This document shows, one piece after another, positions 11,394-15,018 of a DNA stretch of 64,000 bases (position 1 is its first letter; every line of letters starts with the position of its first letter). Below the pieces are notes generated by a model. The model was not told the DNA's origin and did not search any database. It saw only the letters and a program-made list of their open reading frames with translations. Source of the DNA: a virus (taxonomy: Duplodnaviria; Heunggongvirae; Uroviricota; Caudoviricetes); IMG/VR virus record IMGVR_UViG_3300027796_000011, positions 41,850-105,849 of that record; one strand, given 5' to 3'. A program made the translations under genes and the position numbers.

Positions 11394-11690
11394 ATGGACG
11401 CAATCGAAGTTGGGTGCTGGGTGTTTCTTTGTCATTACAATGCTGCCGACGAGACTCATTTAGATAAATACCCCTCCATGAAGGAGTTTTTCGGGACATG
11501 GGGTACTGTGTCCGAAGTGGACCCAAGCGGGGGAGACGTTTACTTCCGGTTAAGAGACTCCACCTTTTGGTTTCATTCTAGTTGGGTTATTGCTGTACGC
11601 GGTGTGCGGGACGCTCCCAAAAGTGTAGGGGGCCACGAGAAGACACAGCACAGGGACATTCGGTTAATCAGACTGAGGAGGATAGGATGA
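11394..11690 (+). CDS. HRDIRLIR-family small protein (array member 1)
   Basis: GGGGAGGG RBS; motifs FFGTWGTV, FWFHSSWV, C-terminal HRDIRLIRLRRIG. Confidence 0.55.
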   Translation: MDAIEVGCWVFLCHYNAADETHLDKYPSMKEFFGTWGTVSEVDPSGGDVYFRLRDSTFWFHSSWVIAVRGVRDAPKSVGGHEKTQHRDIRLIRLRRIG

Positions 11691-12010
11691 AAGAGTGGGC
11701 AGATGTGGAATCTTTGGTGGATGTGGAGATACGCGGGGTGGTCAAGCAGTTTTGGGATATTGGCTATTACACGCAGGAAGGGTGTAGTGGTCATTATGGG
11801 AAGCAGCCTCCGTACTTGATCTTCCTCCCCAAAATCTTTCGTGAGGATTCTTTGTACGGGGTTATGTATGCCTTACAGGAAGAGATGAAGTACGGGCTGA
11901 CTGTTAAGTATCAGGGGAACTCCTTGGTGCTTTCCTGCCCGCCTCGTAGGTACGAAGTCTTCCAACAGGCGTTGGAGAGATTACTTGCTTGGTTGCGGGA
12001 CGGAGTTTAG
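11687..12010 (+). CDS. hypothetical protein
   Basis: AGGAGG RBS + ATG at 11687; MKEWADVESLVDVEIRG... Confidence 0.4.
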   Translation: MKEWADVESLVDVEIRGVVKQFWDIGYYTQEGCSGHYGKQPPYLIFLPKIFREDSLYGVMYALQEEMKYGLTVKYQGNSLVLSCPPRRYEVFQQALERLLAWLRDGV

Positions 12011-12084
12011 ATTTTAGGCGGGAAGGCAACCGTAGGTATGCAAACAAAGCAAGAAATAAACTGAAGTTGACTTCAAAAAACCTC

Positions 12085-12116
12085 TTGACAAAGACTAGAT
12101 TTTTCGGGTAGGATAC
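12085..12116 (+). promoter_or_regulatory. sigma70-like promoter preceded by a GAAGTTGACTTC palindrome
   Basis: cttgacaaagactagatttttcgggtaggatact. Confidence 0.5.
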
Positions 12117-12147
12117 TCGTATCAAATGAGCGGGGAGGGGGATAACT

Positions 12148-12423
12148 ATGGAATTTACCAAAGGGATGCGTGTTCGTTTGAAGCCTTTAGACTTCTGTGC
12201 GGATATCCCCAAAGGGCCTGTCATAGCCTTAGCTATGCACCCTTACTTTGGGAAGGTTGTAACTGTGGACCATTTTATAGAAGAGTTAGCGGGTATAGGT
12301 TCATTTAAGGTTAAAGAGGATACCCACACATACAACGTCGCTTGGGTTTGTGAGTCCGCACCCCATACCGAAAGGCCGAAACACCGGGATGTTCGTTTAA
12401 TTAGAATGCGGGTTGGAGAATAA
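12148..12423 (+). CDS. HRDIRLIR-family small protein (array member 2)
   Basis: MEFTKGMRVRLK..., YFGKVVTV, YNVAWV, C-terminal HRDVRLIRMRVGE. Confidence 0.55.
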   Translation: MEFTKGMRVRLKPLDFCADIPKGPVIALAMHPYFGKVVTVDHFIEELAGIGSFKVKEDTHTYNVAWVCESAPHTERPKHRDVRLIRMRVGE

Positions 12424-12427
12424 TGCC

Positions 12428-12733
12428 ATGGAACTGAAACCTGGGATGTATATAAGGCTGAAGAGACTGCAAGACATAGACACCGATCAGGCTCCTGGGG
12501 TTGTTCCACACATGCGTGGATATTTTGGAAGAATCTTCATTGTAGACAGTGTAGAACCTATACATAGGTGGGTGTCCCTCAGAGAATTGCCAGAAGATTC
12601 TGATGATGGAGTATGTAGTTGGTCCTTTCACTCAGACTGGATGGAGAGTGTCACAGTTACATACACGGAGCCGTTCACCAAAGAACGGCATAGGGACATC
12701 AGGTTGATTCGTATGCGGGTGGGAGGCCAGTGA
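12428..12733 (+). CDS. HRDIRLIR-family small protein (array member 3)
   Basis: MELKPGMYIRLK, YFGRIFIV, WSFHSDWM, HRDIRLIRMRVGG. Confidence 0.55.
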   Translation: MELKPGMYIRLKRLQDIDTDQAPGVVPHMRGYFGRIFIVDSVEPIHRWVSLRELPEDSDDGVCSWSFHSDWMESVTVTYTEPFTKERHRDIRLIRMRVGGQ

Positions 12734-13227
12734 TGCAACTCAAGAAAGGGATGCGAGTACAACTCAAAGCATGGCTACATGCAGATGACACTAGGCTATC
12801 CATCATGGATGCAATGAAGCATTATTTTGGGAGGGTAGTCACCGTAGCGACTGACCCTGATAAGTACGGAGACTTCCAAATAGTTGATGGAGACGGCTGG
12901 TATTTCACAGAAGATTGGGTAGCGAGGATTTGCAGTAAGACTAATGGGGATGCTCTATGGGACAAGTCTATGCTGAAAAAGGGAACGAGAGTTAGACTAA
13001 AAGCACGCGATCTTTGTAGCAGTATCCATAACGGTCCACACATCCTAGCACAAATGGATGAATGGTTCGGAGAGATAGTGGTTGTAGAGCAGTATCCAGC
13101 TTACGATTCTGGGGTGCGGTTTACGATCAAAGAAAGCCCCTACACCTACCACACATCTTGGGTTGAGAGCATCGTTCCCAAGGAGAAGCACACGGACTTG
13201 AGACTTATCCGGTTGCGGAGGGTGTGA
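12730..13227 (+). CDS. HRDIRLIR-family protein, tandem two-module version (array member 4)
   Basis: two KKGxRVxLKA + YFG/WFG + W modules and one C-terminal HTDLRLIRLRRV; ATGA start overlap. Confidence 0.55.
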   Translation: MMQLKKGMRVQLKAWLHADDTRLSIMDAMKHYFGRVVTVATDPDKYGDFQIVDGDGWYFTEDWVARICSKTNGDALWDKSMLKKGTRVRLKARDLCSSIHNGPHILAQMDEWFGEIVVVEQYPAYDSGVRFTIKESPYTYHTSWVESIVPKEKHTDLRLIRLRRV

Positions 13228-13493
13228 TGGAACTGAAAGTCGGGACGGTTGTCAGACTCATGAAGCAGGAGTGTGCCGAAAAGACATGTGGTCTAACAAT
13301 ATACACACCCATGCACAAGTATTTTGGGACAGACGTAACAATAGCAGACCTGTCGGGGTGCAAAAGCCACTTCAAGATACGCGGAGATGCTTCAAACCTA
13401 TGGTATGACGCAAGGTGGATAAAGTCTGTGGGTGCTGCATCTAGGCTGGATTATCATCGGGACATTCGGCTGATTCGATTACGGGTCAGGTAG
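13224..13493 (+). CDS. HRDIRLIR-family small protein (array member 5)
   Basis: MMELKVGTVVRLMK, KYFGTDVTI, LWYDARWI, HRDIRLIRLRVR. Confidence 0.55.
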   Translation: MMELKVGTVVRLMKQECAEKTCGLTIYTPMHKYFGTDVTIADLSGCKSHFKIRGDASNLWYDARWIKSVGAASRLDYHRDIRLIRLRVR

Positions 13494-13511
13494 CATACCT
13501 GGAGGTTTAGT

Positions 13512-13880
13512 ATGGCAAAGACACTGATGTTCAGCGTAACCAAGGATGATGTGGAGTGGGACACGTATCGCGGGACGGGGCCTGGAGGCCAGCACAGGAA
13601 CAAGACGGAATCGGCAGTACGTTTAACGCACAGACCTTCCGGGGTGGTAGTACAGAGTCAGAGTGATAGAAGCCAGCATACGAACAAGCGTGAGTGTATG
13701 AAGCAGTTGGCAGCCCACCCGAAATTCAAGGCATGGTGCTTACGTCGCAGCATTGAAATGCGGGAGGGGGAGACGTTAGAGCAGAAGGTAGACAAGATGC
13801 TCCATCCCGAGAATCTAAAGATCGAGTTGCTGGACGAAACTACACATAAGTGGGGGGCTGGACATGCAGGTGGGAGATAG
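13512..13880 (+). CDS. GGQ-motif peptidyl-tRNA hydrolase, ArfB/YaeJ (RF-1 domain)-like
   Basis: [43 protein letters not shown] aligns with the ArfB core AGGQHVNKTSTAIHLRFD...QEYRSQELNRE; GGAGG RBS. Confidence 0.7.
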
Positions 13881-14196
13881 GATCAAGCTGCGCTCTTATG
13901 GGGAGATCAAAGCCCTTCCTGGTGTGTACGAGGAGGGGTTCTGTGGTGATGCCAGCAGGCCGTGCTTACTCCACCCAGATTGGCATAGGAATGTTGTGAT
14001 TAAGGATTCTGCACTCCGATGCGGGTGTGATGGTATAACCTCTCACGAGGTTACTTCTGTGGAAGGCCAGTTTTTCCACATCATGGGGCATTCCTGGACA
14101 TTCCATGAGGATTGGGTAGTGGGATTGGTGAGGGGTTCAACTACGAGCCAAGTGAGACACAGCGACCTTCGATTGATTAGAACACGGAGGCCCTAG
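13864..14196 (+). CDS. HRDIRLIR-family small protein (array member 6)
   Basis: [48 protein letters not shown]. Confidence 0.5.
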
Positions 14197-14198
14197 AC

Positions 14199-14528
14199 AT
14201 GTTAGGGGTGTTCGTTATTTTACGCTCACGCGAGAGCATACAGTCAGACGATGTTCTACTGCATAGTCTGGTTGGGTATGGTTTTCCAGTGGTACTACAA
14301 GAAATGTCTCATAGGGAGCGTGGTGCTTTCGATGCCGTGTTTGATGGTGTGAGCAAGCATCAGGTGTACGCTATCAAACATGGGTGTGTCTTTGTAGGTG
14401 CCTTCTCCGACATTCCAATACCCGACATCCTGGTGCTTTCTTGGGATATTTTGGGGAAGGAGGCACCCCGAAAAATACGTTCCAATCACCTGGATATACG
14501 TTTGATACGTTGCAGAAAGACGAACTAA
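14199..14528 (+). CDS. divergent HRDIRLIR-family protein (array member 7)
   Basis: C-terminal NHLDIRLIRCRKTN; N-terminal region diverged. Confidence 0.45.
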   Translation: MLGVFVILRSRESIQSDDVLLHSLVGYGFPVVLQEMSHRERGAFDAVFDGVSKHQVYAIKHGCVFVGAFSDIPIPDILVLSWDILGKEAPRKIRSNHLDIRLIRCRKTN

Positions 14529-14553
14529 GACACACAAGTAAGGAGATACTTCG

Positions 14554-15018
14554 ATGATTCGTTCAAGGATTTCATCCATGTGGGAGGCACTAAAAAGCCA
14601 CTTCTATGTGGCACAACGCCCGGTGCCCGAACAGGCCACCACCATTACTAGGAGTAGCCAAATACGGTTGCGGGTTGGGGACAGAGTGAAACTGCTATCC
14701 TATAAAAGCATAGCTAAGTTGCCCGGAGTCTATACAAAGAGGTTCAATGACCACCTCAATGAGTGCTTGGGTCATTACTCTTGGGAGACATACAGAGTAA
14801 TTAAAGGAACGACCCAACTATATGTGTTTGGGGATGGGGGCTTTCATAGGATTGACTCTGTGTCCGAGTCTAGAAACTGCTTCACTATTGAAGACCATCC
14901 TTGGTGGTTTCATAAGGATTGGGTTGCCGAACATCGCCCACGGCAGCAATCTGGAAGCTGCATGAATACCATGCGGGTGATCCGTCTATCAAAAAATCGG
15001 GAAGGAGAACAGAAGTGA
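14554..15018 (+). CDS. divergent HRDIRLIR-family protein (array member 8)
   Basis: VGDRVKLLSYKSIAKLPGVYTKRF, HPWWFHKDWV, degenerate C-terminus MRVIRLSK. Confidence 0.45.
   Translation: MIRSRISSMWEALKSHFYVAQRPVPEQATTITRSSQIRLRVGDRVKLLSYKSIAKLPGVYTKRFNDHLNECLGHYSWETYRVIKGTTQLYVFGDGGFHRIDSVSESRNCFTIEDHPWWFHKDWVAEHRPRQQSGSCMNTMRVIRLSKNREGEQK

What the first reader, a model, noticed from the sequence alone, without database searches (positions are those of the whole stretch)
11394..15018. Tandem array of about 8 diversified small paralogs with conserved C-terminal H-R-D-I-R-L-I-R-x-R
- Eight consecutive plus-strand genes (89-165 aa) share one architecture: N-terminal K-x-G-x-R-V-R-L-K, central (Y/W)FG-x-V-T-V, a W-x-F-H-x-D-W-V block, and a nearly invariant C-terminal HRDIRLIR(L/M)R(V/R).
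- The intervening sequence is strongly diverged. One member is a two-module fusion.
- Many members overlap their neighbour with an ATGA start.
- Other members are scattered elsewhere. 6476..6790 has the C-terminal motif. 30274..30525 has the N-domain only.
- I do not recognise the family. The arrangement resembles the diversified multigene arrays used by phages for host takeover or anti-defence.
Basis: seen in the sequence. Interest (0 to 1): 0.8.

Follow-up and report, generated by a model that had tools for sequence, protein, structure and literature searches.

The report
Phage SH3-like paralogs sharing one tail
An uncultured phage carries eleven fast-evolving small genes; most encode a Mind-bomb-type SH3-like barrel and ten end in a conserved basic C-terminal peptide (nearly invariant in eight), which most likely docks them all onto one common partner that is still unknown.

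Summary
The window holds 11 genes (12 modules) of one family.

The block is not strictly consecutive. An unrelated 107-aa gene and a GGQ-only RF-1-domain gene sit inside it.

The tail core (H-x-D-[IL]-R-L-I-R-x-R) is 72% identical between paralogs, against 25% for the barrels. Identical residues share a codon only 35% of the time, so selection acts on the protein. Only the codons after ...LIR also serve as the Shine-Dalgarno of the next, overlapping gene.

The barrel is a divergent Mind bomb "Mib repeat" SH3 domain (Pfam SH3_15):
- AF2 gives pLDDT about 90 for the barrel.
- The family HMM finds 170 relatives, several above the SH3_15 threshold.

The tail is new and portable. It also occurs on a non-barrel protein in a related contig. 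It was found only in this phage lineage, in fragments from five other samples.

Best reading: variable binding modules tethered by a constant docking peptide. The partner and function are untested. I rate this a new variant of a known domain kind, of moderate interest.

The parts
11293..11328 (+). Terminator-like hairpin after the PIN-PhoH gene, upstream of the array
   Evidence: 16-bp stem followed by a T run
11339..11367 (+). Sigma70-like promoter (TTGACA-17-TAGAAT) in front of m1; a copy of the phage-wide promoter consensus
11394..11690 (+). m1: barrel + linker + tail HRDIRLIRLRRIG (tail 11649-11690)
   Evidence: leave-one-out barrel E 2e-6
11687..12010 (+). Unrelated 107-aa gene inside the array; start overlaps the m1 stop (ATGA), and its SD AGGAGG lies in the m1 tail codons
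   Evidence: no family hit
12085..12114 (+). Second sigma70-like promoter (TTGACA-18-TAGGAT) in front of m2; 68 nt are 91% identical to 31269-31336 on the minus strand
12148..12423 (+). m2: barrel + tail HRDVRLIRMRVGE (tail 12382-12423); the modelled member
12428..12733 (+). m3: barrel + tail HRDIRLIRMRVGGQ (tail 12689-12733)
12733..13227 (+). m4: two barrel modules in one protein (module a, no tail, about 12733-12969; module b 12970-13227 with tail HTDLRLIRLRRV)
   Evidence: ortholog P0007
13227..13493 (+). m5: barrel + tail HRDIRLIRLRVR (tail 13455-13493)
13512..13880 (+). GGQ-only RF-1-domain protein (122 aa) embedded in the array; its end overlaps the m7 start by 17 nt; the same gene follows a tail-bearing gene in two related contigs
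   Evidence: Pfam RF-1 1.3e-24; NCBIfam; L003 and L004
13864..14196 (+). m7: barrel with a Cys/His-rich loop insertion + tail [12 protein letters not shown] (tail 14158-14196)
14199..14528 (+). m8: tail HLDIRLIRCRKTN (14487-14528) on an N-terminal region whose barrel homology is not demonstrable
14554..15018 (+). m9: barrel with N-terminal extension and loop insertion; degenerate tail MNTMRVIRLSKNREGEQK (14962-15018)
6476..6790 (-). x2: tail HKDIRLIRKRVGGCNET (6476-6529) on a barrel-like but not significantly similar N-terminal region; GGGAGG in the tail codons is the SD of x1
   Evidence: ortholog in L007
30274..30525 (-). x3: barrel only, no tail

Best explanation
The array encodes a lineage-specific family of small cytoplasmic phage proteins built from three parts:
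1. A fast-evolving SH3-like beta-barrel of the Mind bomb 'Mib repeat' (SH3_15) type. In MIB1 this domain is a peptide-binding module.
2. A flexible, charged linker of variable length (about 4-20 residues).
3. A nearly invariant C-terminal peptide, [KRE]-x-H-x-D-[IL]-R-L-I-R-x-R.

The tail is a portable short linear docking motif. It tethers every member, and at least one unrelated domain, to one constant partner, which may be a host hub or a phage protein. The diversified barrels supply different binding specificities. On this reading the family is a set of tethered binders or adaptors, expanded by duplication, fusion/fission and cassette exchange.

The genes are transcribed from the phage's standard sigma70-type promoters and are translationally coupled. 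The last two to four tail codons double as the Shine-Dalgarno of the next gene.

Shown: the family, protein-level selection, the barrel fold and its superfamily link, tail portability, array turnover, and the SD overlap.
Inferred: that the tail docks to a common partner, and that the barrels bind varied targets.
Unknown: the partner. Candidates, all unproven, are an AAA+ protease N-domain in the manner of the SspB XB peptide, the ribosome together with the embedded GGQ protein, or nucleic acid.
For: Family and selection:
- Leave-one-out barrel HMMs are significant for 10 modules.
- Orthologs in other samples give dN/dS of 0.14-0.26.
- The tail core is 72.5% identical between paralogs, against 25.5% for the barrels. 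Only 35% of identical residues share a codon, and third-position identity is 45%.

Fold:
- The AF2 model of m2 has pLDDT about 90 for residues 1-70, and 50-58 for the linker and tail.
- The best PDB sequence-profile hit is the same domain, in register (E 0.13).
- The family HMM finds 170 cluster representatives. P0014, P0017, P0019, P0020 and P0028 among them pass the Pfam SH3_15 gathering score.
- MIB1 REP binds a short peptide epitope of Notch ligands (PMC11887331).

Portability of the tail:
- The L006 partial ORF has no barrel (hhalign P 0.55) but ends in KHKDLRLIRMRMV.
- m8 and x2 share only the tail by sequence.
- m4a-type barrels occur with a tail (P0011) or fused without one (m4, P0007).

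Turnover:
- L005 is 98.6% identical to the window from 15369 onward, but upstream it carries a different family member.
- L004 lacks m7-m9.
- The family evolves at 56-59% amino-acid identity, while the adjacent RF-1 gene is 87% identical.

Tail shape: the core is not an amphipathic alpha-helix (hydrophobic moment 0.24 at 100 degrees). It fits an extended strand better (1.0 at 160 degrees).
Against: - No partner has been identified and no binding was tested. AF2 gives the tail low confidence and no docking pose.
- The window members themselves do not reach any Pfam threshold. The superfamily link is transitive plus structural.
- The RF-1 gene is linked to the array in all three contigs where the region is visible. 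A generic docking model does not explain this.
- The tail is strongly basic, so nucleic-acid binding is not excluded.
- All relatives found are short metagenomic fragments of one lineage, so the 'portable' claim rests on one clear case (L006) plus two ambiguous ones.
Confidence: 0.45

Rival explanations
1. The proteins are small nucleic-acid-binding proteins. The barrel acts like a KOW/Tudor/Sm-type RNA or DNA binder and the tail is an arginine-rich motif that clamps nucleic acid. The family would modulate transcription, translation or RNA metabolism.
For: - The tail carries 4-5 Arg in 11 residues.
- Neighbouring genes are RNA-related: PIN-PhoH (a PhoH2-like RNA helicase), the RF-1 domain gene, and RtcB elsewhere in the window.
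Against: - The best structural and sequence-profile match is a protein-peptide interaction domain, not KOW.
- The tail has three or four invariant large aliphatic residues plus invariant His and Asp. To my knowledge (from memory) this is unlike classical arginine-rich motifs.
- Barrel surfaces are highly variable (25% identity), which is not expected for a shared nucleic-acid ligand.
Confidence: 0.15
2. The proteins target the ribosome. Like SmpB, ArfA and ArfB, a small globular domain carries an unstructured basic C-terminal tail that probes the ribosome's mRNA channel. The embedded GGQ-only protein, which has no codon-recognition domains and no ArfB-type tail, would be the catalytic partner recruited in trans.
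For: - The RF-1-domain gene sits inside the array and directly follows a tail-bearing gene in the window, L003 and L004.
- Only its residues 7-69 match GGQ domains, and its ArfB match covers only the first 33 positions.
- The tail is predicted to be unstructured.
- The tails of SmpB, ArfB and ArfA are basic, disordered and bind the mRNA channel (review PMC8012679).
- The phage also encodes RtcB.
Against: - Eight or more diversified paralogs are not needed for a single ribosomal site.
- Aliphatic residues are unusual for mRNA-channel tails.
- The GGQ motif reads GVQ in L003, and L004 has an in-frame TGA in the gene.
- There is no homology to ArfA, ArfB or SmpB.
- The tail-bearing x1 and x2 lie far from the RF-1 gene.
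Confidence: 0.08
3. The tail is a turnover or sorting signal for the protein that carries it. It could be a C-terminal degron that limits the lifetime of these proteins, or a signal that loads them into the capsid for co-injection.
For: - The tail is C-terminal, portable and invariant while the cargo varies.
- x1 and x2 lie in the leftward unit that runs into the head protease and capsid genes.
Against: - The conserved core is followed by 3-13 variable residues. The known C-terminal degrons I recall (from memory) sit at the extreme C-terminus.
- Most members lie in a non-structural operon.
- No cleavage motif was identified and no virion proteomics is available.
Confidence: 0.1
4. The conservation reflects a nucleotide-level element (RNA structure, recombination site, RBS) or recent gene conversion, rather than a protein motif.
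For: - The codons after ...LIR contain AGGAGG, GGGAGG or GGAGG placed 5-9 nt before the next start codon in m1, m3, m4, m7 and x2.
- Short DNA repeats of 16 nt are detectable at the tail (D3).
Against: - In the 10-codon core, third positions are only 45% identical.
- Arg is encoded by five of its six codons (no CGC) and Leu by four.
- Identical residues share a codon only 35% of the time.
- The motif is kept in orthologs whose synonymous sites are saturated.
- The SD overlap explains only the residues after the core.
Confidence: 0.03

Closest known systems
Mind bomb 1 'Mib repeat' (REP) domain / Pfam SH3_15 (PF18346), PDB 4TSE
   Different: The window proteins do not reach the Pfam threshold themselves. 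They are stand-alone 85-110-aa phage proteins, not part of a RING E3 ligase. They carry a conserved basic C-terminal tail that MIB1 lacks. No ligand is known.
Uncharacterised multi-repeat SH3_15 proteins of phages, plasmids and bacteria (for example P0014, P0028, and the Clostridium perfringens plasmid protein WP_415338015 = P0016)
   Same: The barrel module is homologous (E 1e-17 to 1e-9 with the family profile). The settings are also phage or mobile-element.
   Different: Those proteins string 2-5 barrels in one polypeptide and lack the HxD[IL]RLIRxR tail. In this phage the modules are mostly separate genes, each with the tail.
SspB adaptor of ClpXP (substrate-binding domain, flexible linker, C-terminal XB peptide RGGRPALRVVK)
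   Same: The architecture is similar: a small globular binding domain, a flexible linker and a short basic/aliphatic C-terminal tethering peptide. The core [IL]-R-L-I-R resembles L-R-V-V-K by residue class. The XB sequence is from PMC3983244. XB works as a portable, position-independent anchor (PMC12373786).
   Different: There is no sequence or fold homology to SspB (no Pfam or NCBIfam hit). The motif is not at the extreme C-terminus. His and Asp are invariant here but absent from XB. ClpX binding is untested, and the host is unknown.
SmpB / ArfA / ArfB ribosome-rescue factors
   Same: A small globular domain carries an unstructured, positively charged C-terminal tail (PMC8012679). A GGQ-domain gene lies in the same operon.
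   Different: There is no homology. The tail contains invariant aliphatic residues. There are many diversified paralogs. The GGQ motif is not strictly kept in relatives.

Membership tests
Pfam SH3_15 (Mind bomb SH3 repeat, PF18346) | Match to the Pfam HMM above the gathering score (24 bits) | tested here: not met
   No window member or close relative hits SH3_15 at E<=1. Distant relatives recovered with the family HMM do pass: P0014 39.1, P0028 35.6, P0017 27.9, P0020 25.1 and P0019 24.7 bits. The link is therefore transitive.
Pfam SH3_15 (Mind bomb SH3 repeat, PF18346) | SH3-like barrel fold superposable on MIB1 REP (4TSE) | tested here: met
Pfam SH3_15 (Mind bomb SH3 repeat, PF18346) | Occurrence as tandem repeats within one polypeptide | tested here: inconclusive
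   Only m4 (and its ortholog P0007) has two modules. The other members are single-module genes arranged in tandem on the DNA.
Pfam SH3_15 (Mind bomb SH3 repeat, PF18346) | Binding of a short peptide epitope (as REP binds the JAG1/Delta C-box) | not testable with these tools
   Known for MIB1 (PMC11887331). No ligand can be inferred here.
SspB-type ClpXP adaptor | SspB substrate-binding domain homology | tested here: not met
SspB-type ClpXP adaptor | C-terminal XB-like tethering peptide (…ALRVVK) on a flexible linker | tested here: inconclusive
   The core [IL]-R-L-I-R matches L-R-V-V-K by residue class only (XB sequence from PMC3983244). It is followed by 3-13 more residues. The linker has low pLDDT.
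SspB-type ClpXP adaptor | Binding to the ClpX N-terminal zinc-binding domain and stimulation of degradation | not testable with these tools
ArfA/ArfB/SmpB-type ribosome rescue factor | Sequence homology to ArfA, ArfB or SmpB | tested here: not met
   No hits for family members. The embedded RF-1 protein matches ArfB only over the GGQ region, at 40 bits against a cut-off of 100.
ArfA/ArfB/SmpB-type ribosome rescue factor | Unstructured, positively charged C-terminal tail | tested here: met
   The tail has 4-5 Arg, and pLDDT is 50-58.
ArfA/ArfB/SmpB-type ribosome rescue factor | Functional pairing with a GGQ release factor | tested here: inconclusive
   Gene adjacency is conserved in 3 of 3 contigs. 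However, L003 reads GVQ and L004 has an in-frame TGA. There is no functional test.

The most novel reading that the evidence does not exclude
The array is a natural set of phage-encoded 'degrader' adaptors. The invariant tail would be an XB-like anchor that docks onto the N-domain of a host AAA+ unfoldase (ClpX-type). Each diversified SH3-like barrel, or other tail-bearing domain, would capture a different host protein, for example a defence or housekeeping factor, and deliver it for destruction. This would be the phage counterpart of SspB, or of engineered CLIPPER/BacPROTAC degraders.
Probability: 0.1. Interest if true: 0.85.

Novelty: new variant of a known kind. Interest (0 to 1): 0.5.

Why it matters
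If the tail is a common docking handle, this phage shows a compact way to diversify function: one constant anchor peptide combined with rapidly evolving small binding domains, multiplied by duplication, fusion and cassette exchange.

Identifying the partner would reveal which host or phage machine this lineage exploits. It would also give the first functional foothold for prokaryotic and viral SH3_15 ("Mib repeat") domains, which occur in many uncharacterised phage, plasmid and bacterial proteins.

A short, portable, position-tolerant anchor peptide could also be useful as a tool.

The limits are real. The lineage is uncultured and the host is unknown. The family was found in only six environmental samples, and no function has been tested.

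Tried and rejected
- **Nucleotide-level repeat.** Rejected for the tail core from codon tables and third-position identity. Kept only for the SD overlap at the very end.
- **Rare-codon or stalling signal.** Arg codon use in the tails (n=35) is not clearly different from the barrels of the same genes.
- **Direct family assignment.** Pfam, PHROGs and NCBIfam give nothing for any member.
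- **GenBank phages.** No megablast match for 9-19 kb and no tblastn match for m4.
- **Word-indexed protein search with the family profile.** It returned only the window's own proteins and missed known members, so it is not evidence of absence.
- **Tail-only searches.** A 40-aa C-terminal profile gave nothing at E<=10.
- **Tail-pattern scans.** IMG/VR gave 26 matches, JGI metagenomes 16 and GTDB genomes 19. None was confirmed, and by my rough estimate for IMG/VR these counts are about what chance would give.
- **PhoH as an anchor to find related phages.** There is no close relative in IMG/VR. The 89% relatives sit on contigs that end at PhoH. The 53% relative has other genes downstream and no array.
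- **Is m8 a barrel?** AF2 with the family alignment gives pLDDT 58, which is inconclusive. hhalign of m8 and x2 against the barrel profile matches only the first strand (P 0.013).
- **afdb50 fold search.** Unavailable. BFVD returned only uncharacterised SH3-like phage proteins.
- **Literature.** No paper links SH3_15 to phages.
- **Resemblance of 'HRD[IL][KR]' to the kinase catalytic-loop motif.** Dismissed as coincidence, because a 12-residue tail cannot be a kinase.

Full report
**Observation.** The ORF list shows eight tail-bearing genes on the + strand at the stated coordinates:
- m1 11394-11690
- m2 12148-12423
- m3 12428-12733
- m4 12733-13227 (two modules)
- m5 13227-13493
- m7 13864-14196
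- m8 14199-14528
- m9 14554-15018

Two unrelated genes interrupt them. One is a 107-aa ORF (11687-12010). The other is a 122-aa RF-1-domain protein (13512-13880; Pfam RF-1 E 1.3e-24).

A six-frame motif scan and the ORF lists confirm the two scattered members, both on the minus strand (x2 6476-6790; x3 30274-30525, no tail). The window therefore holds 11 genes and 12 modules. An HMM of the family finds no more among 1208 window ORFs. A degenerate DNA pattern for the tail matches 5 times, against 0 in 100 shuffles.

Leave-one-out HMMs built from barrels only, with tails removed, recover ten modules at E 2e-17 to 6e-6. They do not recover m8 (E 2.8) or x2 (no hit).

**Protein or nucleotide conservation?**
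- In the ten-codon tail core (H-x-D-[IL]-R-L-I-R-x-R) the paralogs are 72.5% identical in amino acids. The barrels are 25.5% identical.
- Third codon positions in the core are only 45% identical.
- Only 35% of identical residues use the same codon. Arg is written with five codons and Leu with four.
- Orthologs from other samples, whose synonymous sites are near saturation, keep the motif and give dN/dS of 0.14-0.26.

The core is therefore under protein-level selection. One nucleotide-level constraint does exist. In m1, m3, m4, m7 and x2 the codons after ...LIR (R-R, R-V-G-G) spell AGGAGG, GGGAGG or GGAGG, 5-9 nt before the overlapping start of the next gene. The end of the tail is thus dual-coded as a Shine-Dalgarno sequence for translational coupling.

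**Anatomy.** AF2 on m2 with the 12-module alignment gives a five-stranded small barrel with pLDDT about 90 for residues 1-70. The linker and tail are low-confidence (50-58).

The exhaustive HMM search of 1.84 billion cluster representatives finds 170 proteins at E<=1e-3. Most match only the barrel positions, often 2-5 times within one larger protein. Five of ten such proteins tested pass the Pfam SH3_15 gathering score. The window proteins themselves do not.

I conclude that the barrel is a divergent member of the SH3_15 superfamily. The case rests on fold plus transitive homology, and strict Pfam membership is not met. In MIB1 this domain binds a short peptide epitope of Notch ligands (PMC11887331).

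A subgroup (m7, m9, P0046) has a Cys/His-rich insertion in one loop.

**The tail is a separate, portable module.**
- In the related contig L006, a partial ORF with no barrel similarity (hhalign P 0.55; BLAST matches confined to its last about 18 residues) ends in KHKDLRLIRMRMV.
- m8 and x2 share only the tail by sequence. An AF2 model of m8 is not confident (pLDDT 58), so their N-terminal folds remain open.
- The m4a-type barrel occurs as a stand-alone tailed protein in L004 (P0011) and as the tail-less first half of a fusion in the window and L003.
- The linker between barrel and tail varies from about 4 to 20 residues.
- The core is not an amphipathic alpha-helix (hydrophobic moment 0.24 at 100 degrees). 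It fits an extended strand better (1.0 at 160 degrees).

**Distribution and dynamics.** Tail-bearing relatives were found only on short contigs from five other samples (L003-L007). The source contig comes from a JGI metagenome. No relative was found in any of the following:
- GenBank phages
- IMG/VR
- JGI metagenome contigs
- 185,579 GTDB genomes

Array content changes quickly:
- L004 goes from a tailed barrel straight to RF-1 and lacks m7-m9.
- L005 is 98.6% identical to the window from 15369 onward. Upstream it carries a different family member (P0022) where the window has an unrelated 103-aa gene.
- Family orthologs are 56-59% identical, while the adjacent RF-1 gene is 87% identical.

**Context.** The window belongs to a siphovirus-like phage. 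Its major capsid protein is 43-47% identical to those of Stenotrophomonas DLP_5-like and Vibrio VHS1-like phages. It encodes ribonucleotide reductase, RtcB, a DNA methyltransferase and a nucleotidyltransferase.

The array lies in a 6-kb rightward unit (PIN-PhoH to DUF7736) between leftward units. m1 and m2 each follow a copy of a roughly 50-nt promoter consensus that recurs at least eight times in the window. The genes therefore use the phage's standard sigma70-type promoters. This does not by itself show early timing.

PhoH's nearest named bacterial homologs are Desulfovibrionaceae at 41-44%. That is a weak host hint.

**Mechanism.** The pattern has four elements: an invariant tail, variable barrels, a flexible leash, and a tail that also appears on another domain. 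The simplest explanation is a constant docking peptide that brings varied binding modules to one partner (confidence 0.45). The partner is unknown.

Three specific versions are compatible with the data:
1. **An SspB-like tether.** The XB peptide RGGRPALRVVK (PMC3983244) is a portable, position-independent ClpX anchor (PMC12373786). [IL]-R-L-I-R resembles L-R-V-V-K by residue class. There is no homology to SspB, and the motif is not at the extreme C-terminus.
2. **A ribosome-directed tail.** It would act like those of SmpB, ArfA or ArfB (PMC8012679) and work with the embedded GGQ-only protein. That gene is linked to the array in all three contigs where the region is visible. Against this, its GGQ reads GVQ in L003, L004 has an in-frame TGA, and many paralogs would be unnecessary.
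3. **Nucleic-acid binding.**

A degron or virion-loading signal and a purely nucleotide-level element are less likely, for the reasons given under the rival explanations.

**Comparison and novelty.** The barrel is a known kind of domain (SH3_15) in a new, stand-alone, multiplied form. I did not find the tail motif, or the barrel-linker-tail architecture, in any profile library or paper searched. I rate it a new variant of a known kind. Interest is moderate (0.5). The case for a modular anchor peptide is clean and testable, but the lineage is rare and uncultured, and no function or partner has been demonstrated.

Noticed in passing
window 13512-13880 (+); L003 566-937; L004 641-963: The GGQ-only RF-1-domain protein (122 aa) matches the GGQ domain of RF2, RF1 and PrfH better than ArfB. 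The relative in L003 reads GPGVQ (GGC to GTC). The relative in L004 has an in-frame TGA where the window has TGG (Trp), and the reading frame stays conserved after it. This could be a pseudogene, an assembly variant or recoding; it is not resolved.
   Followed up: partly
window 49136-50242 (-): The phage encodes an RtcB tRNA/RNA ligase (phrog_1075, E 4e-101) in the same genome as the GGQ-only release-factor-like gene. Work on PrfH-mediated rescue of damaged ribosomes exists (PMC12829566), and from memory bacterial prfH is paired with an rtcB gene. Here the two genes are 36 kb apart.
   Followed up: no
window + 11338, + 12084; - 62369, 61105, 49130, 34323, 31319, 29393: A phage-wide promoter family has a roughly 50-nt consensus (AAAAACCTCTTGACAAA..CTAGA....GGGTAGGAT....AACAAATGAGCGGGGAGG). 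12067-12134 and 31269-31336 are 91% identical over 68 nt. The same element occurs in the related contigs L004 and L006.
   Followed up: partly
window 9911-10019: Back-to-back sigma70-like promoters (TTGACA-16-TATATT on both strands) sit in the 220-nt gap between the leftward unit and the rightward PhoH/array unit.
   Followed up: no
window 10091-11272 (+): The PhoH protein is of the PIN-PhoH (PhoH2-like RNA helicase) type. Its closest named bacterial homologs are Desulfovibrionaceae at 41-44% identity, a possible hint to the host.
   Followed up: partly
L005 1-341 versus window 15015-15368: There is a cassette swap between near-identical phages from sister samples. L005 is 98.6% identical to the window from 15369 onward. 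Upstream it carries the family member P0022 instead of the window's unrelated 103-aa gene.
   Followed up: partly
window 13864-14196 and 14554-15018; P0046 (L006 672-1019): Three members share a loop insertion rich in Cys and His (for example C-x6-C-x2-H-x3-H in m7 and C-x4-C-x3-H-x2-H in P0046). It may be a small zinc-binding knuckle. This was not modelled.
   Followed up: no
L010 / L011 (contigs with PhoH 53% identical): In a more distant phage the position downstream of PhoH holds a radical SAM gene, a DUF723 protein and other genes instead of the array. The contig also carries a Tad4 (anti-defence) homolog. This suggests a variable accessory region next to PhoH.
   Followed up: no
L012 1997-2251 (P0026): A single-module, tail-less relative of the barrel sits between a gp44-like clamp-loader gene and a Phage_clamp_A gene on a contig that looks T4-like. 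The barrel therefore occurs as a small accessory gene in unrelated phages.
   Followed up: no
L004 90-341 and L006 421-681: A conserved 83-86-aa gene (MKLYH.TTP.KLERYE.SGRI...) sits beside tail-bearing genes in two related contigs. It has no counterpart in the window.
   Followed up: partly
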